DNA of 35,782 nucleotides from Candidatus Delongbacteria bacterium. GTDB taxonomy: Bacteria > UBA4055. The number at the start of each line of letters is the position of its first letter. Within the stretch, counting starts at the first letter, position 1. The position numbers were made by a program, and so were the translations under genes. The stretch lies in contig JAQVNT010000001.1 in assembly GCA_028702975.1 (NCBI GenBank), positions 1 through 35,782 on the forward strand, in the 5' to 3' direction. Below are positions 154-9,623 of this stretch, one piece after another. The notes beneath the pieces were generated by a model, which did no database searches, was not told the origin of the DNA, and worked only from the letters and a program-made list of their open reading frames with translations.

Positions 154-1308
154 TTAAAAAGATAAAAGAACTGACAATAGCGCACAGACGGCGACATAAA
201 ATCCAACTATGTACCTTTTAATAAAACCTGCTTTATAATTTGACATAAAATACATCCCCATACTCATAAATCCCAGACCGCCTACTGTTACGAACAGCGG
301 AAAGCTGACAAATAAGTATAGAAGAGCCATTCCGGAGTTCATGGTAATTCTATTTATGATAAAAGTACCCCAGAAAGTGAACGATCCGAAAGCCAGCACA
401 TAGATCATGTAGATCGCTTTGCCTTTGTTCTTCTCCTGCTCGTCTATATTTGAGATCACCGCATATACAGCTTTACTTACGAGTTCCGGGATTATGAAAA
501 ACACGGTATAAATGAAAGCTGAGAACCTGTCGCCAGCATCATTATTCTTCTGTTCTTCCATTTCTGATTCGAGATCATCATTATTATCGGTTAGATCCGG
601 TTTGTCTGAACTGTGGGCAAGATATATAATTTCATCTTTATTGAACGACATTTCCGGTAATCGCTCGAACCCTCCTCTGAACCTGAGCCTGGATAAGTTC
701 AGCCCGTATGACTTTATTACTTCAGGGTAATCTTTTCCGTACCTTCTAAGATTCCCGGGAATTCCGTAAAGCCTTAGCCTGTCATTGTAGTTCATGTGCG
801 AATATTCCGAGGTCTTTTCCCTTTCCGGATCGACATTTGCCTGAAGTATCATTATTCCATCCGGTTTGAGTATCTTTTTGAGGTCGCTGATGAGCAGATT
901 AGGTCTGGGGTGTTTCTCAAGTATATAATTACAAATGATGATATCGGCTGAACCGGCTGCGTAATCACTTTTCTTGATCTCGTCCCTCATTCTGAAATCC
1001 GGCCGCGACGAGTAAATGTTGACATCGGAGTTCGGGTACTTTCTGAAAAAATCAGCCGCGACCCCTTCTTCTCCGACATAGAGTATTTTTAGCTCCCCTG
1101 ACAGCATCTGTGTCTTTGACAGCAGGAAAAGAAGCACAGTTCTCTCTTCAGCCGTTGATCCGCAAACGGGGCATATTTGACTCAGTTGTTTGGTAAGCTT
1201 GTATTTCGTCGCTATATAGAATCCCGAACAGAACGGGCAGTAGATGACATCGCCGCGGAAATACTGCTTTTTGTAGAACTCGTAATTATTTCTGATCGTT
1301 GAGAACAT
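154..1308 (-). CDS. Zn-ribbon + class I SAM-dependent methyltransferase fused to a C-terminal polytopic membrane domain (possible RiPP tailoring enzyme)
   Basis: 384-aa ORF. N-terminal CPFC...CPVC four-Cys pair. Rossmann-type MTase-like core (KILYVGEEG, ADIIICNYILEKH, LKPDGIMIL). An acidic linker is followed by about 4 hydrophobic helices in the last ~130 aa. AGGA lies upstream of the ATG. Same strand as the exporter and just downstream of it. Confidence 0.6.
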   Translation of the reverse strand: MFSTIRNNYEFYKKQYFRGDVIYCPFCSGFYIATKYKLTKQLSQICPVCGSTAEERTVLLFLLSKTQMLSGELKILYVGEEGVAADFFRKYPNSDVNIYSSRPDFRMRDEIKKSDYAAGSADIIICNYILEKHPRPNLLISDLKKILKPDGIMILQANVDPEREKTSEYSHMNYNDRLRLYGIPGNLRRYGKDYPEVIKSYGLNLSRLRFRGGFERLPEMSFNKDEIIYLAHSSDKPDLTDNNDDLESEMEEQKNNDAGDRFSAFIYTVFFIIPELVSKAVYAVISNIDEQEKNKGKAIYMIYVLAFGSFTFWGTFIINRITMNSGMALLYLFVSFPLFVTVGGLGFMSMGMYFMSNYKAGFIKRYIVGFYVAVCALLSVLLSF

Positions 1309-1375
1309 TCGTTGATCCTATTCAAACTATGTTAGAAATAATAATAACAATTCAAAATAATTGCAAGGTTATTTT

Positions 1376-1579
1376 CTACCTCACTTTCTCAAATATTATA
1401 TCATAAACTGTTTTGCCGTCCTTATACTCAATGAACTTAGCTGAAAGTATCAACCCGATGATCAGAAGTGTTATGACCGTGATGCCGACCCTTACCGCCC
1501 AGTGAGGCCGATAGGTAAGTATTTCCTGTGTTTTCTCGCTTCTGTCTATTATATTATTTATTTTGCTCTCTTCAGGCAT
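1376..1579 (-). CDS. Small single-pass membrane protein resembling only the N-terminal anchor of a HlyD-family bacteriocin-secretion accessory protein (truncated remnant?)
   Basis: The ATG at 1579 lies 1 nt after the PCAT stop codon (TAATATG). The ORF track starts it at a TTG at 1597. The sequence RSEKTQEILTYRPHWAVRVGITVITLLIIGLILSAKFIEY looks like the cytoplasmic-tail plus TM start of HlyD-like proteins, but the ORF stops after ~67 aa. Confidence 0.4.
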   Translation of the reverse strand: MPEESKINNIIDRSEKTQEILTYRPHWAVRVGITVITLLIIGLILSAKFIEYKDGKTVYDIIFEKVR

Positions 1580-1580
1580 A

Positions 1581-3779
1581 TTAATTCCCCAGTTCAAGCT
1601 GATTTTTCACAAGATTGTAATAAGCGCCTTTAAGCTCTGCAAGTTCTTTGTGCGTACCTCTTTCAATTAACCTGCCTTTCTCAAGCACTACGATCTGATC
1701 GGCATTTTTTACTGTGCTGAGTCTGTGCGCGACTACAACAACGGTTTTTCCTTTGAAGAACTGATCAAGATTTTCCATTATGACCTTTTCATTATTGGCG
1801 TCAAGCGCATTGGTGGCTTCGTCAAAGAAAATGAATTCCGGATCTTTATAAACCGATCTCGCGATAAGCATTCTCTGTTTTTGACCCTGACTGAGTCCGT
1901 GCCCATCGCCCCCGATCTTTGTATTGTATCCCAAAGGTAGAGTTTCAATAAATTCTTCTATATTCGCAACATGAACCGCATGCTTAAGTTTATCCTTATC
2001 AGGCTTTTCGTCGCTGACGGAAATATTGTTCGCTATCGTATCGGAGAAGATAAAGCCCTCCTGCATGACAACACCGCATTTTTTTCGCCATTCATTGCTG
2101 TTTATGATCTCAAGATCATTCCTGCCTACCTCGATTTTTCCTTTTTGAGGTTTGTAAAATCCAAGAAGAAGTTTGATCAGCGTAGTCTTTCCGCTTCCGC
2201 TTGTGCCCACGATAGCCGTTATCTTCCCTTCAGGTATGGTTAGGTCGATATCCTTCAGCACCCATTCCGATTCAGGTCCTTCATACTGAAACGATACATC
2301 TTTTACCGTCAAAGTTTTATTATCGCCTATATCTTTGATCCTGTCTTCGTTGGTATTCTCCTCATCCTCCTTGTTGTGGATCTCACCGAGCCTTTCTAGA
2401 CTGATCTTTGCGTCCTGCATGGAGTGCATAAAATAAATCAGCTGAGAGACCGGGCTGTTGAGCTGACCGATTATATACTGAACGGATATCATCATACCGA
2501 GCGTCATATCTCCTTTGATAACCGCATAAGCCGAGAGGAAAGTAATAATAATATTCTTGCCCTCATTTATCAGCATACCACCGGAATTCTGGTACTGGTC
2601 GAGGCTAAGACTTTTTACATTGAGCTTGAACAGCTTAGCCTGAATATTCTCCCAGTCCCACCTTTTCTGCTTTTCGCAGGTGTTGAGCTTGATCTCCTGC
2701 ATACCCGTTATCATCTGGATAAGGTTGCTGTTGTTATCGGACATCACCTCGAACTTCTTAATGTCTATCGCTTTTCTTTTCTTTAAAAAAGCTTTTATCC
2801 ATAATACATAGAGAATGCTGCCTATCAGAAATACGAAGAAAATTTTCACGTTATAAATTATCAGGACTATGCTGAAAATCACAAAATTCACTGCCGAAAA
2901 AAGTATGCTCAAAGTCTGATTTGTCAGGAATGATTCGATCCTGTGATGGTCATTGATCCTCTGAAGCAGATCTCCTGTCATCTTTACATCAAAGAAACTG
3001 ATCGGAAGCTTCATCAGCTTGATTAGAAAGTCCGATATGATCGAAATATTGACCCTTGTGCTCAAATGAAGCAGTATCCAGCTCCGAATAAACTCAATAC
3101 CCGCCCTGCCGAAGAAAAGTGCAAGCTGAGCGATAAGGATGATCATTATAAAATTGACATCTTTTGTGTTAATACCCACATCTACGATCGCCTGCGTCAG
3201 GAAAGGGAAAACAAGCTGAATCAAACTCCCGGCCGCCATACCGATAATGAGCTGGACTATCAGTTTTTTGTACGGTTTTACATAATGGATCAGGAATTTG
3301 AAGCTGGTCTTATCAACTTTCTTCTTTTCGTCCTCGATATTATAAAAATCAGGCGAAGGTTCAAGCAGGAGAGCAACTCCGACAGGAACATCGTCAAGCT
3401 TATCCGAAGCCCAGCGCTTCATAAAATCTTCTCTTGAGTGCTTAAGAAGTCCGTGCGCAGGATCAGAAATCCAAACGAATTTATCTGTGATCTTGTAAAC
3501 AACAACGAAATGGTTTTGATTCCAGTGAACAATGCACGGCAGCTGAGAACTGACCATAAGAGAATCATAGCTTATCTTGACCCCTCTAGTTCTGAATCCC
3601 AGCTGTTCGGCTGCGTTACTGATGCTCAAAAGAGATACACCCTCACGGGTCGCGAAAGCCTTTTCCCGCAGTGTCTCCAATGAGTAAGTCTTACCGTAAT
3701 ATTGAGCTACTATGCGCAGAGCTGTAGGACCGCAGTCCATAGCGTCAAGCTGTTTAAAGGTGGGGAAAGACTTCAGCAA
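1581..3779 (-). CDS. Peptidase C39 domain-containing ABC transporter (PCAT; double-glycine leader cleavage and export)
   Basis: 732 aa. N-terminal C39 motif QLDAMDCGPTAL with downstream HWNQNHFVVVY and SDP (Cys/His/Asp). Six-TM ABC membrane domain. Walker A GTSGSGKTT, signature LSQGQKQR, Walker B IFFDEATNALD. TTG start. Confidence 0.93.
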   Translation of the reverse strand: MLKSFPTFKQLDAMDCGPTALRIVAQYYGKTYSLETLREKAFATREGVSLLSISNAAEQLGFRTRGVKISYDSLMVSSQLPCIVHWNQNHFVVVYKITDKFVWISDPAHGLLKHSREDFMKRWASDKLDDVPVGVALLLEPSPDFYNIEDEKKKVDKTSFKFLIHYVKPYKKLIVQLIIGMAAGSLIQLVFPFLTQAIVDVGINTKDVNFIMIILIAQLALFFGRAGIEFIRSWILLHLSTRVNISIISDFLIKLMKLPISFFDVKMTGDLLQRINDHHRIESFLTNQTLSILFSAVNFVIFSIVLIIYNVKIFFVFLIGSILYVLWIKAFLKKRKAIDIKKFEVMSDNNSNLIQMITGMQEIKLNTCEKQKRWDWENIQAKLFKLNVKSLSLDQYQNSGGMLINEGKNIIITFLSAYAVIKGDMTLGMMISVQYIIGQLNSPVSQLIYFMHSMQDAKISLERLGEIHNKEDEENTNEDRIKDIGDNKTLTVKDVSFQYEGPESEWVLKDIDLTIPEGKITAIVGTSGSGKTTLIKLLLGFYKPQKGKIEVGRNDLEIINSNEWRKKCGVVMQEGFIFSDTIANNISVSDEKPDKDKLKHAVHVANIEEFIETLPLGYNTKIGGDGHGLSQGQKQRMLIARSVYKDPEFIFFDEATNALDANNEKVIMENLDQFFKGKTVVVVAHRLSTVKNADQIVVLEKGRLIERGTHKELAELKGAYYNLVKNQLELGN

Positions 3780-9396: not shown

Positions 9397-9419
9397 TAAA
9401 ACTCATAATTTCAAATTTT

Positions 9420-9450
9420 AAAGAGGGATTACTGTTAATAACCCCTCTTT
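9420..9450 (-). terminator. Hairpin between precursor B and maturase B (counterpart of the 6424..6455 element)
   Basis: aaagaggg (9420-9427) pairs with ccctcttt (9443-9450) around a 15-nt loop. Same relative position and same AAAGAGGG/CCCTCTTT stem core as in module A. Confidence 0.4.
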
Positions 9451-9467
9451 CTCTAATCATGCTTATT

Positions 9468-9623
9468 TTAATATTGAATTGGAGTAAAACCAGTATTGAG
9501 ATCCTGTCCGAAATCACATTTCCTAGCAGTAGTACCTGGTGTACCTTCTTCAACGCCACCTCTAATCTTGAGTCCCTCTTTCTTTAGGTTCAAGATCAAA
9601 TATTTTTTTTTTGATTGTTTCAT
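9468..9623 (-). CDS. RiPP precursor peptide B, 51 aa, double-glycine leader: MKQSKKKYLILNLKKEGLKIRGG|VEEGTPGTTARKCDFGQDLNTGFTPIQY
   Basis: Hand-translated. AAGGAG lies 8 nt upstream of the ATG, with an in-frame TAA two codons upstream. Leader and first 14 core residues are conserved with precursor A. The + strand ORF 9496..9831 is its antisense shadow. Confidence 0.8.
   Translation of the reverse strand: MKQSKKKYLILNLKKEGLKIRGGVEEGTPGTTARKCDFGQDLNTGFTPIQY

What the first reader, a model, noticed from the sequence alone, without database searches (positions are those of the whole stretch)
154..9623. Tandemly duplicated peptide / radical-SAM-SPASM / beta-propeller-lipoprotein modules feeding one C39-ABC exporter: candidate uncharacterised RiPP-type system
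Seen: the minus-strand array reads precursor B (51 aa), rSAM B (475 aa), propeller B (387 aa), precursor A (49 aa), rSAM A (472 aa), propeller A, PCAT (732 aa), a 67-aa membrane stub, then an MTase/membrane fusion. Within each module the coding genes are tightly spaced. The longer gaps sit at the precursor genes and carry the hairpins and leader DNA. Both rSAMs carry CxxxCxxC, GGEPLL and a complete SPASM cysteine set. Both also have a ~100-aa N-terminal extension that could be an RRE-like peptide-recognition domain. All three components were duplicated together, and the paralogues align by eye over full length with well over half of positions identical. Established: rSAM/SPASM + GG-leader peptide + C39 ABC transporter is the canonical logic of sactipeptide/ranthipeptide-type RiPPs. 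A 'GG-Bacteroidales' rSAM/peptide family is also defined in TIGRFAMs without known chemistry. Inference: strict 1:1:1 coupling to an exported propeller lipoprotein is not part of any characterised RiPP pathway I know of. This therefore looks like a new three-component system.
Basis: partly seen in the sequence, partly recalled or inferred. Interest (0 to 1): 0.9.

Follow-up and report, generated by a model that had tools for sequence, protein, structure and literature searches.

The report
Duplicated radical-SAM peptide operon with propeller lipoproteins
This is a real, twice-repeated gene set for making, cross-linking and exporting two small peptides. It is a known kind of system, except that each peptide carries its own exported beta-propeller lipoprotein, whose role (probably binding the finished peptide) is untested.

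Summary
On the minus strand lie two modules, each a 49/51-aa double-glycine peptide, a 472/475-aa radical-SAM/SPASM enzyme and a 387/390-aa lipoprotein. After them come one C39-ABC exporter, a small membrane ORF and a methyltransferase/membrane fusion. Paralogue identity is 54% (enzymes), 60% (propellers) and 68% (peptides).

- **Maturases.** They fold like CteB over their full length, including an N-terminal peptide-recognition domain. They keep all cluster cysteines but fall below every curated family cut-off.
- **Peptides.** They match no model. Each core has one Cys inside a conserved V-[DE]-[DE]-G-T-P-G-T-x4-C-D motif.
- **Lipoproteins.** They are divergent DUF5128/NHL-type six-bladed propellers.
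- **Small ORF.** It is the N-terminal remnant of a HlyD adaptor.
- **The two modules.** They form a 22–31% G+C island fused 16 nt upstream of a 42–47% G+C exporter gene.

The exact system occurs in only one Delongbacteria lineage, so "strict 1:1:1 coupling" rests on a single duplication. Most DUF5128 genes stand in paralogue arrays without any maturase. However, two of the three nearest non-self relatives of these propellers end other peptide-biosynthesis operons (one rSAM RiPP, one NRPS-like).

Most likely this is a thioether-type RiPP operon with a cognate extracytoplasmic peptide-binding lipoprotein, probably for immunity. I rate it a new variant of a known kind.

The parts
9468..9623 (-). 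Precursor peptide B (51 aa). Lys-rich leader MKQSKKKYLILNLKKEGLKIRGG, then core VEEGTPGTTARKCDFGQDLNTGFTPIQY.
   Evidence: ORF with AGGAG ribosome-binding site. 68% identical to pepA over 38 aa. Called as a gene in four public assemblies. 50 of 51 aa conserved in a related strain, L087. No Pfam or NCBIfam hit at E<=10.
9624..9730 (-). Conserved upstream DNA of module B (promoter or 5' leader), containing a TTGACA-17-TAAATT match at 9728-9700.
   Evidence: About 60 nt nearly identical to the region upstream of pepA. Promoter-like site listed; this is a consensus match only.
9420..9450 (-). Hairpin between pepB and rSAM B.
   Evidence: 14-bp stem, -20.4 kcal/mol, z -4.36, 0 of 200 shuffles as stable. 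There is no strong T-run, so a partial terminator or stabiliser is inferred.
7969..9396 (-). Radical-SAM/SPASM maturase B (475 aa).
   Evidence: PF04055 and Fer4_12. Best NCBIfam hit is PapB at 185 bits, below the 340 cut-off. 54% identical to maturase A.
6788..7951 (-). Propeller lipoprotein B (387 aa): a divergent DUF5128/NHL-type six-bladed beta-propeller with lipobox LISC.
   Evidence: AF2 model pLDDT 87.6, pTM 0.85. Foldseek finds NHL domains, BF0058 (4raa), DUF4221 (3s9j) and PAL (3fvz). Nearly all profile-search hits carry PF17170.
6628..6735 (-). Conserved upstream DNA of module A.
   Evidence: Alignment with module B.
6478..6627 (-). Precursor peptide A (49 aa). Leader MKTAKKKYVILNLKKNDGLKIKGG, then core VDDGTPGTITPACDTVMSKPKPVWN.
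   Evidence: 100% conserved in strain L088, with one synonymous change.
6423..6456 (-). Hairpin between pepA and rSAM A.
   Evidence: 14-bp stem, -21.4 kcal/mol, z -4.0.
4989..6407 (-). Radical-SAM/SPASM maturase A (472 aa) with an N-terminal RRE-like domain.
   Evidence: PapB 205.6 bits (cut-off 340), CcpM 180, nif11 172, SCIFF 161, QhpD 159. PDB best hit CteB, E 8.9e-33. AF2 model pLDDT 88.2; Foldseek to CteB gives TM 0.73/0.81 over 456 columns. pN/pS 0.15 against strain L088.
3796..4968 (-). Propeller lipoprotein A (390 aa from ATG 4968; lipobox LYSC).
   Evidence: 60% identical to propeller B. Called as 390 aa in public assemblies. pN/pS 0.17 against strain L088.
1581..3779 (-). Peptidase-containing ABC transporter (C39 + transmembrane domain + ATPase).
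   Evidence: PF03412, PF00664 and PF00005 all above cut-off. Q10/C16/H90/D106, Walker A at 525, LSQGQ at 629. G+C is 42-47%, against 22-31% in the modules. 92% identical in L014.
1376..1597 (-). Truncated HlyD-family adaptor: only the N-terminal cytoplasmic tail and transmembrane helix remain.
   Evidence: Matches residues ~1-60 of 387-461-aa proteins. All 8 full-length ones tested carry PF13437 HlyD_3. One TM segment at 31-59. Conserved at 85% in L014.
154..1308 (-). Zinc-ribbon / class-I methyltransferase / C-terminal membrane-domain fusion. Its membership in the system is doubtful.
   Evidence: Weak MTase Pfam hits below cut-off. CPFC and CPVC motifs and three or four hydrophobic segments. 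Homologues at 48-58% lie beside DUF5128 genes in loci where no rSAM was found (L028, L008; L014 is cut inside the exporter).
9795..10479 (-). Two overlapping 117-aa AraC-type (HTH_18) paralogues directly upstream on the same strand. They are candidate regulators.
   Evidence: PF12833 in both. 42% identical to each other. A regulatory role is inferred from position only.

Best explanation
This is a tandemly duplicated RiPP operon of the radical-SAM/SPASM thioether (ranthipeptide/sactipeptide-like) kind.

Proposed sequence of events:
1. Each 49/51-aa precursor is bound through its Lys-rich double-glycine leader by the RRE domain of its own maturase.
2. The maturase uses its radical-SAM cluster and two auxiliary clusters to cross-link the single conserved Cys of the core. 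The partner residue probably lies in the conserved V-[DE]-[DE]-G-T-P-G-T-x4-C-D segment. This chemistry is inferred.
3. The one shared C39-ABC transporter cuts after Gly-Gly and pumps the peptide across the inner membrane.
4. The adaptor gene is reduced to a stub, so no outer-membrane conduit is encoded here.
5. The DUF5128/NHL six-bladed propeller of each module is exported by Sec and lipid-anchored. It therefore meets only the finished, leaderless peptide. I propose that it binds its cognate peptide outside the cytoplasm, most likely as a self-protection (immunity or sequestering) lipoprotein.

What is shown:
- gene content and protein folds
- the catalytic and cluster residues
- the duplication, the hairpins and the G+C island

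What is inferred:
- the thioether chemistry
- co-transcription
- any binding between peptide and propeller, and what it is for
For: RiPP logic:
- Domains and motifs.
- CteB is the best sequence match (E 8.9e-33) and the best structural match over the full length, including the N-terminal domain (TM 0.73/0.81 over 456 columns, against 380-400 columns for anSME).
- Hairpins after each precursor gene and duplicated upstream DNA fit the usual excess of precursor over enzyme.

The propeller belongs to the module:
- 17-20 nt spacing behind the maturase and 16 nt ahead of the exporter.
- The low-G+C island covers exactly the two peptide-rSAM-propeller modules.
- Both propeller copies stay intact after deep divergence (60% identity). 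Propeller A shows pN/pS 0.17 between strains.
- Among the nearest non-self relatives (ranking; the nearest of all, P0003/L001, sits beside a soluble methyltransferase), two end other peptide-biosynthesis operons. L005 reads rSAM, PqqD-like protein, Cys-rich peptide, ABC exporter, propeller. L006 has the propeller 33 nt after a 2885-aa NRPS-like protein.
- A third locus, L072, embeds an RRE-length rSAM/SPASM enzyme among five propeller-like lipoproteins beside an ABC exporter.

A binding role rather than a substrate or cytoplasmic role:
- Lipoprotein signal peptides.
- No Cys conserved beyond the lipobox.
- The peptide cores are unrelated after the C-D pair while the leaders are conserved. That fits one shared exporter with module-specific partners.
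- One immunity gene per bacteriocin gene, sharing one exporter, is the established pattern in bacteriocin loci (general knowledge).
Against: - No experiment exists.
- The exact system is known from one lineage only.
- The 1:1:1 pattern follows automatically from a single block duplication.
- Most DUF5128 proteins occur in large paralogue arrays with no peptide or maturase nearby (up to 16 in 20 kb). The family's basic function therefore does not need an rSAM peptide.
- Other close relatives of the propellers sit beside unrelated genes: a soluble MTase in L001, a redoxin lipoprotein in L007, and FGE-like lipoproteins in L008/L009.
- A 43-kDa propeller would be an unusual immunity protein.
- A single Cys is few for this maturase neighbourhood.
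- Both maturases are below every curated cut-off, so another chemistry (C-C, ether, epimerisation) is possible.
Confidence: 0.55

Rival explanations
1. Holo-complex, as in quinohemoprotein amine dehydrogenase. The cross-linked peptide is not a free natural product. It is a small subunit or ligand that is exported into the periplasm and assembles stably with its own propeller lipoprotein, as a cofactor-bearing or structural subunit or as a ligand-receptor pair.
For: In QHNDH, an rSAM/SPASM enzyme (QhpD) makes Cys-to-Asp/Glu thioethers in a leader-bearing small subunit. That subunit is then moved by an ABC exporter into the periplasm, where it joins the other subunits (PMC7876137). That the beta subunit is a propeller is my own knowledge. 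The QhpD model TIGR03906 is among the top five hits for both maturases (159 and 129 bits). The cores hold Cys next to Asp, plus a D/E pair. The HlyD adaptor is truncated, so delivery may stop in the periplasm, where the lipoprotein sits. Peptide and propeller have diverged together, module by module.
Against: - The scores are far below the 453-bit cut-off.
- There are no QhpA, QhpE or QhpG homologues.
- The cores are 25-28 aa with one Cys, against about 80 aa with several for QhpC.
- Trp is present in core A only, so a tryptophylquinone cannot be conserved.
- Most of the DUF5128 family has no peptide partner.
- The adaptor could be supplied from elsewhere in the genome.
Confidence: 0.12
2. Post-export tailoring enzyme. 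The propeller is a periplasmic or surface enzyme that chemically finishes the leaderless peptide after export, for example by trimming, lyase or cyclase chemistry. NHL-type propellers such as peptidyl-alpha-hydroxyglycine alpha-amidating lyase do this kind of reaction.
For: PAL (3fvz) and lactonase-type six-bladed propellers are among the structural matches. The protein is extracytoplasmic and sits in the operon. It is specific to its module.
Against: - TM-scores are only about 0.45-0.5, and the best matches are non-enzymatic NHL domains.
- No metal-binding or catalytic motif is conserved beyond the structural GxGPGE turn.
- Relatives are attached to unrelated biosynthetic logics (RiPP in L005, NRPS-like in L006), which argues against one specific chemistry.
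Confidence: 0.1
3. Passenger. The propeller genes have nothing to do with the peptides. A DUF5128 gene happened to lie in the duplicated or transferred block and is kept for its own, unknown, envelope function.
For: - DUF5128 genes are abundant and mostly free-standing, in arrays.
- rSAM enzymes lie within 10 kb in only 4 of 84 loci, and two of those are about 8 kb away with unrelated genes in between.
- The module count is only two and derives from one event.
Against: - The same order and 17-20 nt spacing are kept in both modules after divergence to 54-60% identity.
- The composition island has exactly the modules as its content.
- Two of the three nearest relatives again end peptide-biosynthesis operons.
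Confidence: 0.18
4. Protein maturase. The rSAM enzymes modify the propeller lipoproteins themselves before export, as anaerobic sulfatase maturases modify sulfatases, and the small ORFs are incidental.
For: anSME is a clear structural relative (TM about 0.63/0.8). L072 has an rSAM among five propeller-like lipoproteins with no obvious GG peptide. L008 and L009 alternate DUF5128 genes with FGE-sulfatase-family genes.
Against: - The maturases carry an RRE domain that anSME lacks, and they match CteB better.
- The peptides have ribosome-binding sites, a canonical GG leader and a matching C39 exporter, and are conserved.
- The propellers share no Cys beyond the lipobox. One relative has only that Cys.
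- The FGE-like proteins of L008 are themselves lipoproteins, not cytoplasmic maturases.
Confidence: 0.03

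Closest known systems
CteB / PapB / CcpM / SCIFF-type radical-SAM/SPASM thioether maturases (ranthipeptides, formerly grouped with sactipeptides)
   Same: Radical-SAM CxxxCxxC cluster, a full SPASM cysteine set and an N-terminal RRE. A leader-bearing, Cys-containing precursor sits next to the enzyme. These are the best sequence and structure matches.
   Different: - Only about 21-32% identical, and below every curated cut-off.
- The core has a single Cys.
- The leader is a Lys-rich double-glycine type cut by a C39-ABC exporter.
- The host is a diderm of the FCB neighbourhood (Delongbacteria MAG).
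- A propeller lipoprotein is part of each module.
GG-Bacteroidales rSAM cassette (TIGR04148 maturase, TIGR04149 precursor, TIGR04150 pseudo-rSAM), usually with a C39-ABC exporter and HlyD
   Same: A double-glycine precursor, an rSAM/SPASM enzyme, a C39-ABC exporter and (here as a remnant) HlyD. One described Bacteroides fragilis cassette also has a lipoprotein gene right after the precursor (PMC4573289).
   Different: - TIGR04148 scores 99 and 94 bits against a cut-off of 300, and covers only the radical-SAM half.
- The peptides do not hit TIGR04149 at all.
- There is no second, pseudo-rSAM gene.
- The lipoprotein here is a 43-kDa DUF5128 propeller.
Quinohemoprotein amine dehydrogenase biogenesis (qhpABCDEFG)
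   Same: An rSAM/SPASM enzyme cross-links Cys to acidic residues in a small leader-bearing polypeptide. An ABC exporter then moves it to the periplasm to meet an exported propeller subunit (that the beta subunit is a propeller is my own knowledge).
   Different: There is no cytochrome subunit, no subtilisin-like leader protease and no flavoprotein. The peptide is a third of the length and has one Cys and no conserved Trp. The propeller is of a different family (six-bladed NHL/DUF5128 lipoprotein). TIGR03906 is far below cut-off.
DUF5128 (PF17170) / TolB-like / NHL six-bladed propeller lipoproteins
   Same: Lipobox, the GxGPGE motif, and a predicted six-bladed fold. Nearly all profile-search relatives carry PF17170.
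   Different: These are too divergent to hit the Pfam model directly. The nearest non-self relative is 29% identical. Typical members stand in maturase-free arrays. No function is known for the family (one search found no literature).
LanI-type lantibiotic immunity lipoproteins (NisI, SpaI), as a functional analogy only
   Same: An extracytoplasmic lipoprotein is encoded with the peptide it would bind, with one such protein per peptide and a shared exporter (general knowledge).
   Different: There is no sequence or fold relationship. The analogy is untested.

Membership tests
Radical-SAM/SPASM peptide maturases with RRE (CteB-like) | CxxxCxxC radical-SAM cluster motif and the GGEP SAM-binding motif | tested here: met
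   C109/C113/C116 and G156-G157-E158-P159 are invariant in the 65-sequence alignment. PF04055 is above cut-off.
Radical-SAM/SPASM peptide maturases with RRE (CteB-like) | SPASM domain with the cysteines for two auxiliary [4Fe-4S] clusters | tested here: met
   C348, C367, C407, C410, C416, C420 and C442 are conserved. The model superposes on CteB and anSME through the C-terminal domain. The Pfam SPASM model itself did not score.
Radical-SAM/SPASM peptide maturases with RRE (CteB-like) | N-terminal RiPP recognition element (winged-helix; three strands plus helices) | tested here: met
   The AF2 model has E17-22, E25-30, E35-39, H41-52 and H62-77. The Foldseek alignment to CteB covers 456 columns, that is, the N-terminal domain as well.
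Radical-SAM/SPASM peptide maturases with RRE (CteB-like) | Score at or above the curated cut-off of a named equivalog (PapB, CcpM, SCIFF maturase, nif11 maturase) | tested here: not met
   Best is PapB NF047865 at 205.6 and 185 bits against 340. CcpM scores 180 against 500, and SCIFF 161 against 425.
Radical-SAM/SPASM peptide maturases with RRE (CteB-like) | Product carries a Cys thioether to a non-alpha (ranthipeptide) or alpha (sactipeptide) carbon | not testable with these tools
   Needs mass spectrometry or NMR of the modified peptide.
GG-Bacteroidales rSAM system (TIGR04148/04149/04150) | Maturase reaches the TIGR04148 cut-off | tested here: not met
   99.2 and 94.3 bits against 300. Only residues ~91-252 align.
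GG-Bacteroidales rSAM system (TIGR04148/04149/04150) | Precursor matches TIGR04149 or PF14406 | tested here: not met
   No family at all at E<=10 in NCBIfam or Pfam.
GG-Bacteroidales rSAM system (TIGR04148/04149/04150) | Paired pseudo-rSAM protein (TIGR04150) | tested here: not met
   Each module holds one rSAM gene and no further ORF of that kind.
Peptidase-containing ABC transporters (PCAT) | N-terminal C39 peptidase with catalytic Cys and His, then a six-helix ABC exporter domain and an ATPase | tested here: met
   PF03412 120 bits, PF00664 118 bits, PF00005 111 bits. Q10, C16, H90, D106, Walker A and the signature motif are present. TIGR01193 scores 429 bits, below its 524 cut-off.
Peptidase-containing ABC transporters (PCAT) | Substrate with a double-glycine leader | tested here: met
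   LKI[KR]GG ends a 23-24-aa leader in both peptides, with hydrophobic residues at -4, -12 and -15 in pepA and at -4 and -15 in pepB.
DUF5128 (PF17170) six-bladed propeller | Match to the Pfam model | tested here: not met
   No PF17170 hit at E<=0.01; only a sub-threshold Reg_prop repeat.
DUF5128 (PF17170) six-bladed propeller | Homology to family members and a six-bladed fold | tested here: met
   The profile of the two paralogues plus two hits recovers 117 proteins, nearly all carrying PF17170. The model is a six-bladed NHL-type propeller.
Anaerobic sulfatase-maturating enzymes | Reaches the TIGR03942 cut-off, lacks an RRE, and has a sulfatase substrate gene nearby | tested here: not met
   118-120 bits against 349. 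An RRE is present. No scanned ORF in the 35.8-kb window matched a sulfatase family.
Quinohemoprotein amine dehydrogenase (qhp) system | QhpD-level maturase plus QhpA cytochrome, QhpE protease and QhpG flavoprotein, with an ~80-aa multi-Cys gamma subunit | tested here: not met
   TIGR03906 scores 159 and 129 bits against 453. None of the other genes is in the window. The cores are 25-28 aa with one Cys.
Known anti-phage defence systems (PADLOC) | Specific match to a defence-system protein model | tested here: not met
   Only generic radical-SAM-core (pVip) and ABC-ATPase similarity. There is nothing for the propellers, the peptides or the MTase.

The most novel reading that the evidence does not exclude
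The cross-linked peptide and its cognate DUF5128 propeller lipoprotein form a dedicated periplasmic or surface complex, and that complex is the real product of each module. The rSAM-modified mini-subunit or ligand would be delivered by the ABC exporter to its own propeller, as in QHNDH-type assembly but in a different protein family. This would give the large orphan DUF5128 family its first function. It would also define a class of 'RiPP-loaded' lipoproteins.
Probability: 0.12. Interest if true: 0.85.

Novelty: new variant of a known kind. Interest (0 to 1): 0.5.

Why it matters
- **A new maturase and peptide family.** The maturases and peptides fall outside every curated rSAM-RiPP family. The single-Cys core with an invariant acidic/Thr-rich motif is a compact substrate for working out a possibly new cross-link.
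- **A first handle on DUF5128.** DUF5128 propeller lipoproteins are a large, expanded family with no known function in Aminicenantes, Cloacimonadota, Delongbacteria and Bacteroidota. This operon, with L005 and L006, ties one clade of that family to secreted peptide products. That gives a testable hypothesis: binding of, or immunity to, a defined 25-28-aa ligand.
- **A built-in specificity control.** The two diverged modules allow cognate versus non-cognate pairs to be compared for both maturase-peptide and propeller-peptide recognition.

Tried and rejected
- **Sulfatase-maturase reading.** Rejected on scores, the presence of an RRE, and the absence of any sulfatase-family match.
- **Propeller as the rSAM substrate.** No Cys is shared beyond the lipobox.
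- **FGE-sulfatase-family genes alternating with DUF5128 in L008/L009.** I first read this as a second 'Cys-modifying maturase' parallel. These proteins turned out to be lipoproteins themselves, so I dropped it as evidence.
- **L052 and L011.** The rSAM hits lie about 8 kb from the propellers with unrelated genes between, so I counted them as unlinked.
- **Contexts of the nearest maturase relatives.** P0013/L085 and P0063/L086 have no propeller. The 380-aa gene after the CcpM-like enzyme in L086 is unrelated to the propeller (hhalign probability 0.2%).
- **Metagenome scan for the peptide signature GGV[DE][DE]GTPGT.** It found only two contigs, both from the same organism or a close strain.
- **Genome scan with the 71-sequence alignment.** It failed for lack of a conserved stretch. 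I repeated it with the 4-sequence alignment.
- **tblastn of the small ORF against plasmids.** No match.
- **PADLOC.** Generic hits only.
- **Literature.** Searches for DUF5128, PF17170, NVEALA, and NHL plus SPASM found nothing relevant. One search was badly chosen and uninformative.
- **Not done.** I did not build a phylogeny of DUF5128 clades.

Full report

Yes. All nine ORFs lie on the minus strand at the stated coordinates.

| Gene | Coordinates | Length |
|---|---|---|
| pepB | 9468-9623 | 51 aa |
| rSAM B | 7969-9396 | 475 aa |
| propeller B | 6788-7951 | 387 aa |
| pepA | 6478-6627 | 49 aa |
| rSAM A | 4989-6407 | 472 aa |
| propeller A | 3796-4968 | 390 aa from the ATG (398 from an upstream TTG) |
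| C39-ABC exporter | 1581-3779 | 732 aa |
| small membrane ORF | 1376-1597 | 73 aa (67 from Met7) |
| MTase/membrane fusion | 154-1308 | 384 aa |

The paralogues are 54% identical for the rSAMs, 60% for the propellers and 68% over 38 aa for the peptides.

Genes within a module are 17-20 nt apart, and propeller A ends 16 nt before the exporter. The long gaps of 71, 160 and 70 nt flank the peptide genes.

Each peptide gene is followed by a 14-bp hairpin. The energies are -21.4 and -20.4 kcal/mol, with z -4.0 and -4.4, and none of 200 shuffles was as stable. Each is also preceded by about 60 nt that is nearly identical between the modules, running up to an AGGAG ribosome-binding site.

**2. The parts**

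*Maturases.*
- Both carry PF04055 and Fer4_12.
- In a 65-sequence alignment, the CxxxCxxC cysteines, GGEP and seven further cysteines of the SPASM region are invariant or nearly so.
- The best curated models are PapB (205 and 185 bits), CcpM, the nif11 maturase, the SCIFF maturase and QhpD. All are far below their cut-offs. TIGR04148 scores 99 and 94 bits against 300.
- The best solved relative is CteB, with E 8.9e-33.
- An AlphaFold model of rSAM A (pLDDT 88.2, pTM 0.89) has an N-terminal helix, three strands and two helices.
- That model superposes on CteB over 456 columns (TM 0.73/0.81). anSME, which lacks that domain, covers only 380-400 columns. The 'RRE-like extension' is therefore supported.

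*Peptides.*
- The leaders are MKTAKKKYVILNLKKNDGLKIKGG and MKQSKKKYLILNLKKEGLKIRGG.
- The cores are VDDGTPGTITPACDTVMSKPKPVWN and VEEGTPGTTARKCDFGQDLNTGFTPIQY.
- The cores share V-[DE]-[DE]-G-T-P-G-T-x4-C-D, then become unrelated. Each has one Cys.
- They match no Pfam or NCBIfam model even at E<=10.

*Exporter.* It has C39, ABC_membrane and ABC_tran domains above cut-off. It also has Q10, C16, H90 and D106, Walker A and the signature motif.

*Small ORF.* An exhaustive search matched it to residues ~1-60 of 387-461-aa proteins. All eight full-length ones tested carry HlyD_3. It is therefore the N-terminal tail and membrane helix of a truncated HlyD adaptor.

*Propellers.*
- Each has a signal peptide with a lipobox (LISC, LYSC).
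- Neither hits PF17170 directly.
- A profile built from them and two distant hits recovers 117 proteins, nearly all PF17170/DUF5128.
- The AlphaFold model of propeller B (pLDDT 87.6, pTM 0.85) is a six-bladed NHL-type propeller.
- Its matches are Brat/TRIM NHL domains, the Bacteroides structural-genomics proteins BF0058 and BVU_1028, PAL and lactonases. TM-scores are only about 0.5.
- The one strongly conserved motif is the structural GxGPGE turn.

**3. Surroundings and origin**

The window is chromosomal. It carries gyrB/parE-like, ComEC, SurA-like, deformylase and YajC genes and tRNAs. It comes from a diderm with T9SS-tailed proteins and a TonB-dependent receptor.

The cluster is 100% identical to contig JAQVBO010000003.1 of a Candidatus Delongbacteria MAG. 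It also recurs in several other metagenomes.

G+C is 22-31% from 3796 to about 9450, which is exactly the two modules. It is 42-47% in the exporter, and the change occurs at the 16-nt junction.

The exporter, the small ORF and the MTase are 92%, 85% and 58% identical in a MAG labelled 'uncultured Bacteroidia' (L014). That contig ends inside the exporter gene. Other assemblies also break at or just inside the 5' end of the exporter gene. I read this as a conserved exporter with strain-variable cargo upstream. That reading is an inference.

Two 117-aa AraC-type paralogues and a TPR/HTH protein lie just upstream.

**4. How far does the three-gene pattern extend?**

*From the maturase side.* Nothing closer than about 32% identity exists outside this lineage among 5.8 billion clusters. 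The two neighbourhoods of near relatives that I looked up have no propeller.

*From the peptide side.* A degenerate DNA scan of the metagenome collection for the core signature found only two contigs. One is a 99% identical strain. The other is a more distant strain in which pepB is 50/51 identical, but homology stops 65 nt into rSAM B.

*From the propeller side.*
- A genome scan returned 80 DUF5128 loci.
- Most are paralogue arrays with no maturase, with up to 16 copies in 20 kb.
- An rSAM/SPASM enzyme lies within 10 kb in four loci, but is adjacent in only two, both from Cloacimonadota.
- L005 reads rSAM, PqqD-like protein, 54-aa Cys-rich peptide, ABC exporter, propeller lipoprotein, all tightly spaced.
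- L072 has an rSAM of RRE length among five shorter propeller-like lipoproteins next to an ABC exporter.

*Nearest relatives of the window propellers.* Ranked by similarity:
- P0003/L001 (29%) sits beside a soluble methyltransferase.
- L005 (29%) is the rSAM RiPP operon above.
- L006 (24-26%) lies 33 nt after a 2885-aa NRPS-like protein with condensation, B12-rSAM, adenylation, ThiF, carrier and thioesterase domains.

So two of the three nearest relatives also end peptide-biosynthesis operons of different logic.

Between the window and the 99% strain, propeller A and rSAM A have pN/pS of 0.17 and 0.15. The counts are small.

**5. Mechanism I commit to**

- *Shown.* The genes, folds, residues, duplication, hairpins and composition island.
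- *Strongly inferred from homology.* The leader is bound by the RRE. The rSAM/SPASM enzyme cross-links the core in the cytoplasm. The C39-ABC transporter cuts after GG and exports.
- *Inferred with less support.* The cross-link is a thioether from the single Cys to a residue of the conserved acidic/Thr-rich segment.
- *Hypothesis.* The lipoprotein meets only the exported, leaderless peptide and binds its cognate one, most likely as an immunity or sequestering protein.

One such protein per peptide, with a shared exporter, is the ordinary layout of bacteriocin loci. The attachment of related propellers to both a RiPP operon and an NRPS-like operon argues for a product-handling role rather than a specific chemistry.

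The truncated adaptor means that no route across the outer membrane is encoded here. This keeps open a periplasmic destination.

**6. Rivals**

- *QHNDH-like complex (0.12).* QhpD cross-links a leader-bearing small subunit, and an ABC exporter then moves it to the periplasm (PMC7876137). The parallel is attractive, but none of the other qhp genes is present, and the peptides are short with one Cys.
- *Post-export tailoring enzyme (0.10).* PAL-type propellers exist, but no catalytic motif is conserved here.
- *Passenger gene (0.18).* This rival is favoured by the free-standing nature of the family. It is disfavoured by the spacing, the composition island, retention of both copies, and the contexts of the nearest relatives.
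- *Propeller as the rSAM substrate (0.03).* This is disfavoured by the RRE, the canonical peptides, and the lack of a shared Cys.

**7. Comparison with what is known, and novelty**

The operon works like a ranthipeptide/sactipeptide-type or GG-Bacteroidales-type RiPP system. It is not a member of any curated family; the membership table gives the tests.

A Bacteroides fragilis GG-Bacteroidales cassette with an unrelated small lipoprotein gene has been described in silico (PMC4573289).

No paper in the held library links DUF5128, PF17170 or NHL propellers to rSAM peptides.

I rate it a new variant of a known kind. It has a new maturase/peptide family and an unreported, plausibly functional accessory. 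However, it is seen in one lineage, and the accessory's role is unproven.

Scores: interest 0.5. The most novel reading not excluded is the RiPP-loaded propeller complex, at probability about 0.12.

Noticed in passing
window 13242-13337 (-): A selenocysteine tRNA scores above Rfam's gathering threshold (56.1 bits against 47). It lies between the TPR/HTH gene and the divergent LTD/CARDB gene. ARAGORN did not list it.
   Followed up: no
window 9795-10148 and 10126-10479 (-): Two overlapping 117-aa AraC-type (HTH_18) paralogues, 42% identical, lie directly upstream of module B on the same strand. That makes two regulators for two modules. A 719-aa TPR/HTH protein (11031-13190) lies further up.
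   Followed up: partly
window 10739-10900 (-) and 10480-10713 (-): A 53-aa ORF has a signal peptide and a Trp/Pro-rich tail (…DETVCPDWVWINGTWVYTGTDPNPQPPPPVKG). A 77-aa ORF with no family match sits nearby. Both lie between the regulators and the TPR protein, and both are called as genes in the NCBI MAG.
   Followed up: no
window 3780-3800; L089, L088, L014 contig ends: There is a sharp G+C step (22-31% against 42-47%) at the 16-nt junction between propeller A and the exporter. Several independent assemblies break at or just inside the exporter gene. This suggests strain-variable cargo upstream of a conserved exporter.
   Followed up: partly
L087 13210-13790, compared with window 9300-9800: In a related strain the flanks are 81-88% identical. 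The pepB segment, however, is almost identical at the DNA level (two changes, giving Phe to Pro in the core). Homology then stops about 65 nt into rSAM B, 117 nt before the contig end. This could be a recombination junction or a different downstream cassette.
   Followed up: partly
window 154-1308; L028 171-2434; L008 18172-20675; L014 1688-2851: Homologues (48-58% identical) of the zinc-ribbon/MTase/membrane fusion recur next to or near DUF5128 lipoprotein genes in other MAGs where no rSAM was found. In L028 the gap is 8 nt. The fusion may therefore be tied to the propeller family rather than to the peptide pathway.
   Followed up: partly
L008 9986-15200; L009 42-3164: DUF5128 lipoproteins alternate with 300-302-aa FGE-sulfatase-family (PF03781) lipoproteins. 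In L008 there are two copies, 92% identical, forming another duplicated 'propeller + partner' module. An MmeI-type restriction-modification gene sits next to them in L008.
   Followed up: partly
L040 1012-20714: Sixteen DUF5128 paralogues fill about 20 kb in an Aminicenantales MAG. Arrays of 5-8 occur in L016, L046, L064 and L058. This is a very large expansion of a family with no known function.
   Followed up: no
L006 4-11152: An unusual 2885-aa hybrid carries condensation, B12-binding radical-SAM, adenylation, ThiF, carrier and thioesterase domains. A 439-aa ORF of unscanned identity precedes it, and a DUF5128 lipoprotein follows it after 33 nt.
   Followed up: partly
L005 6454-10943: A compact Cloacimonadota operon reads SPASM rSAM (352 aa), PqqD-like 97-aa protein, 54-aa peptide with four Cys after an NGG motif, ABC exporter without a C39 domain, then DUF5128 lipoprotein. 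Neither the peptide nor the 97-aa protein matches any curated model.
   Followed up: partly
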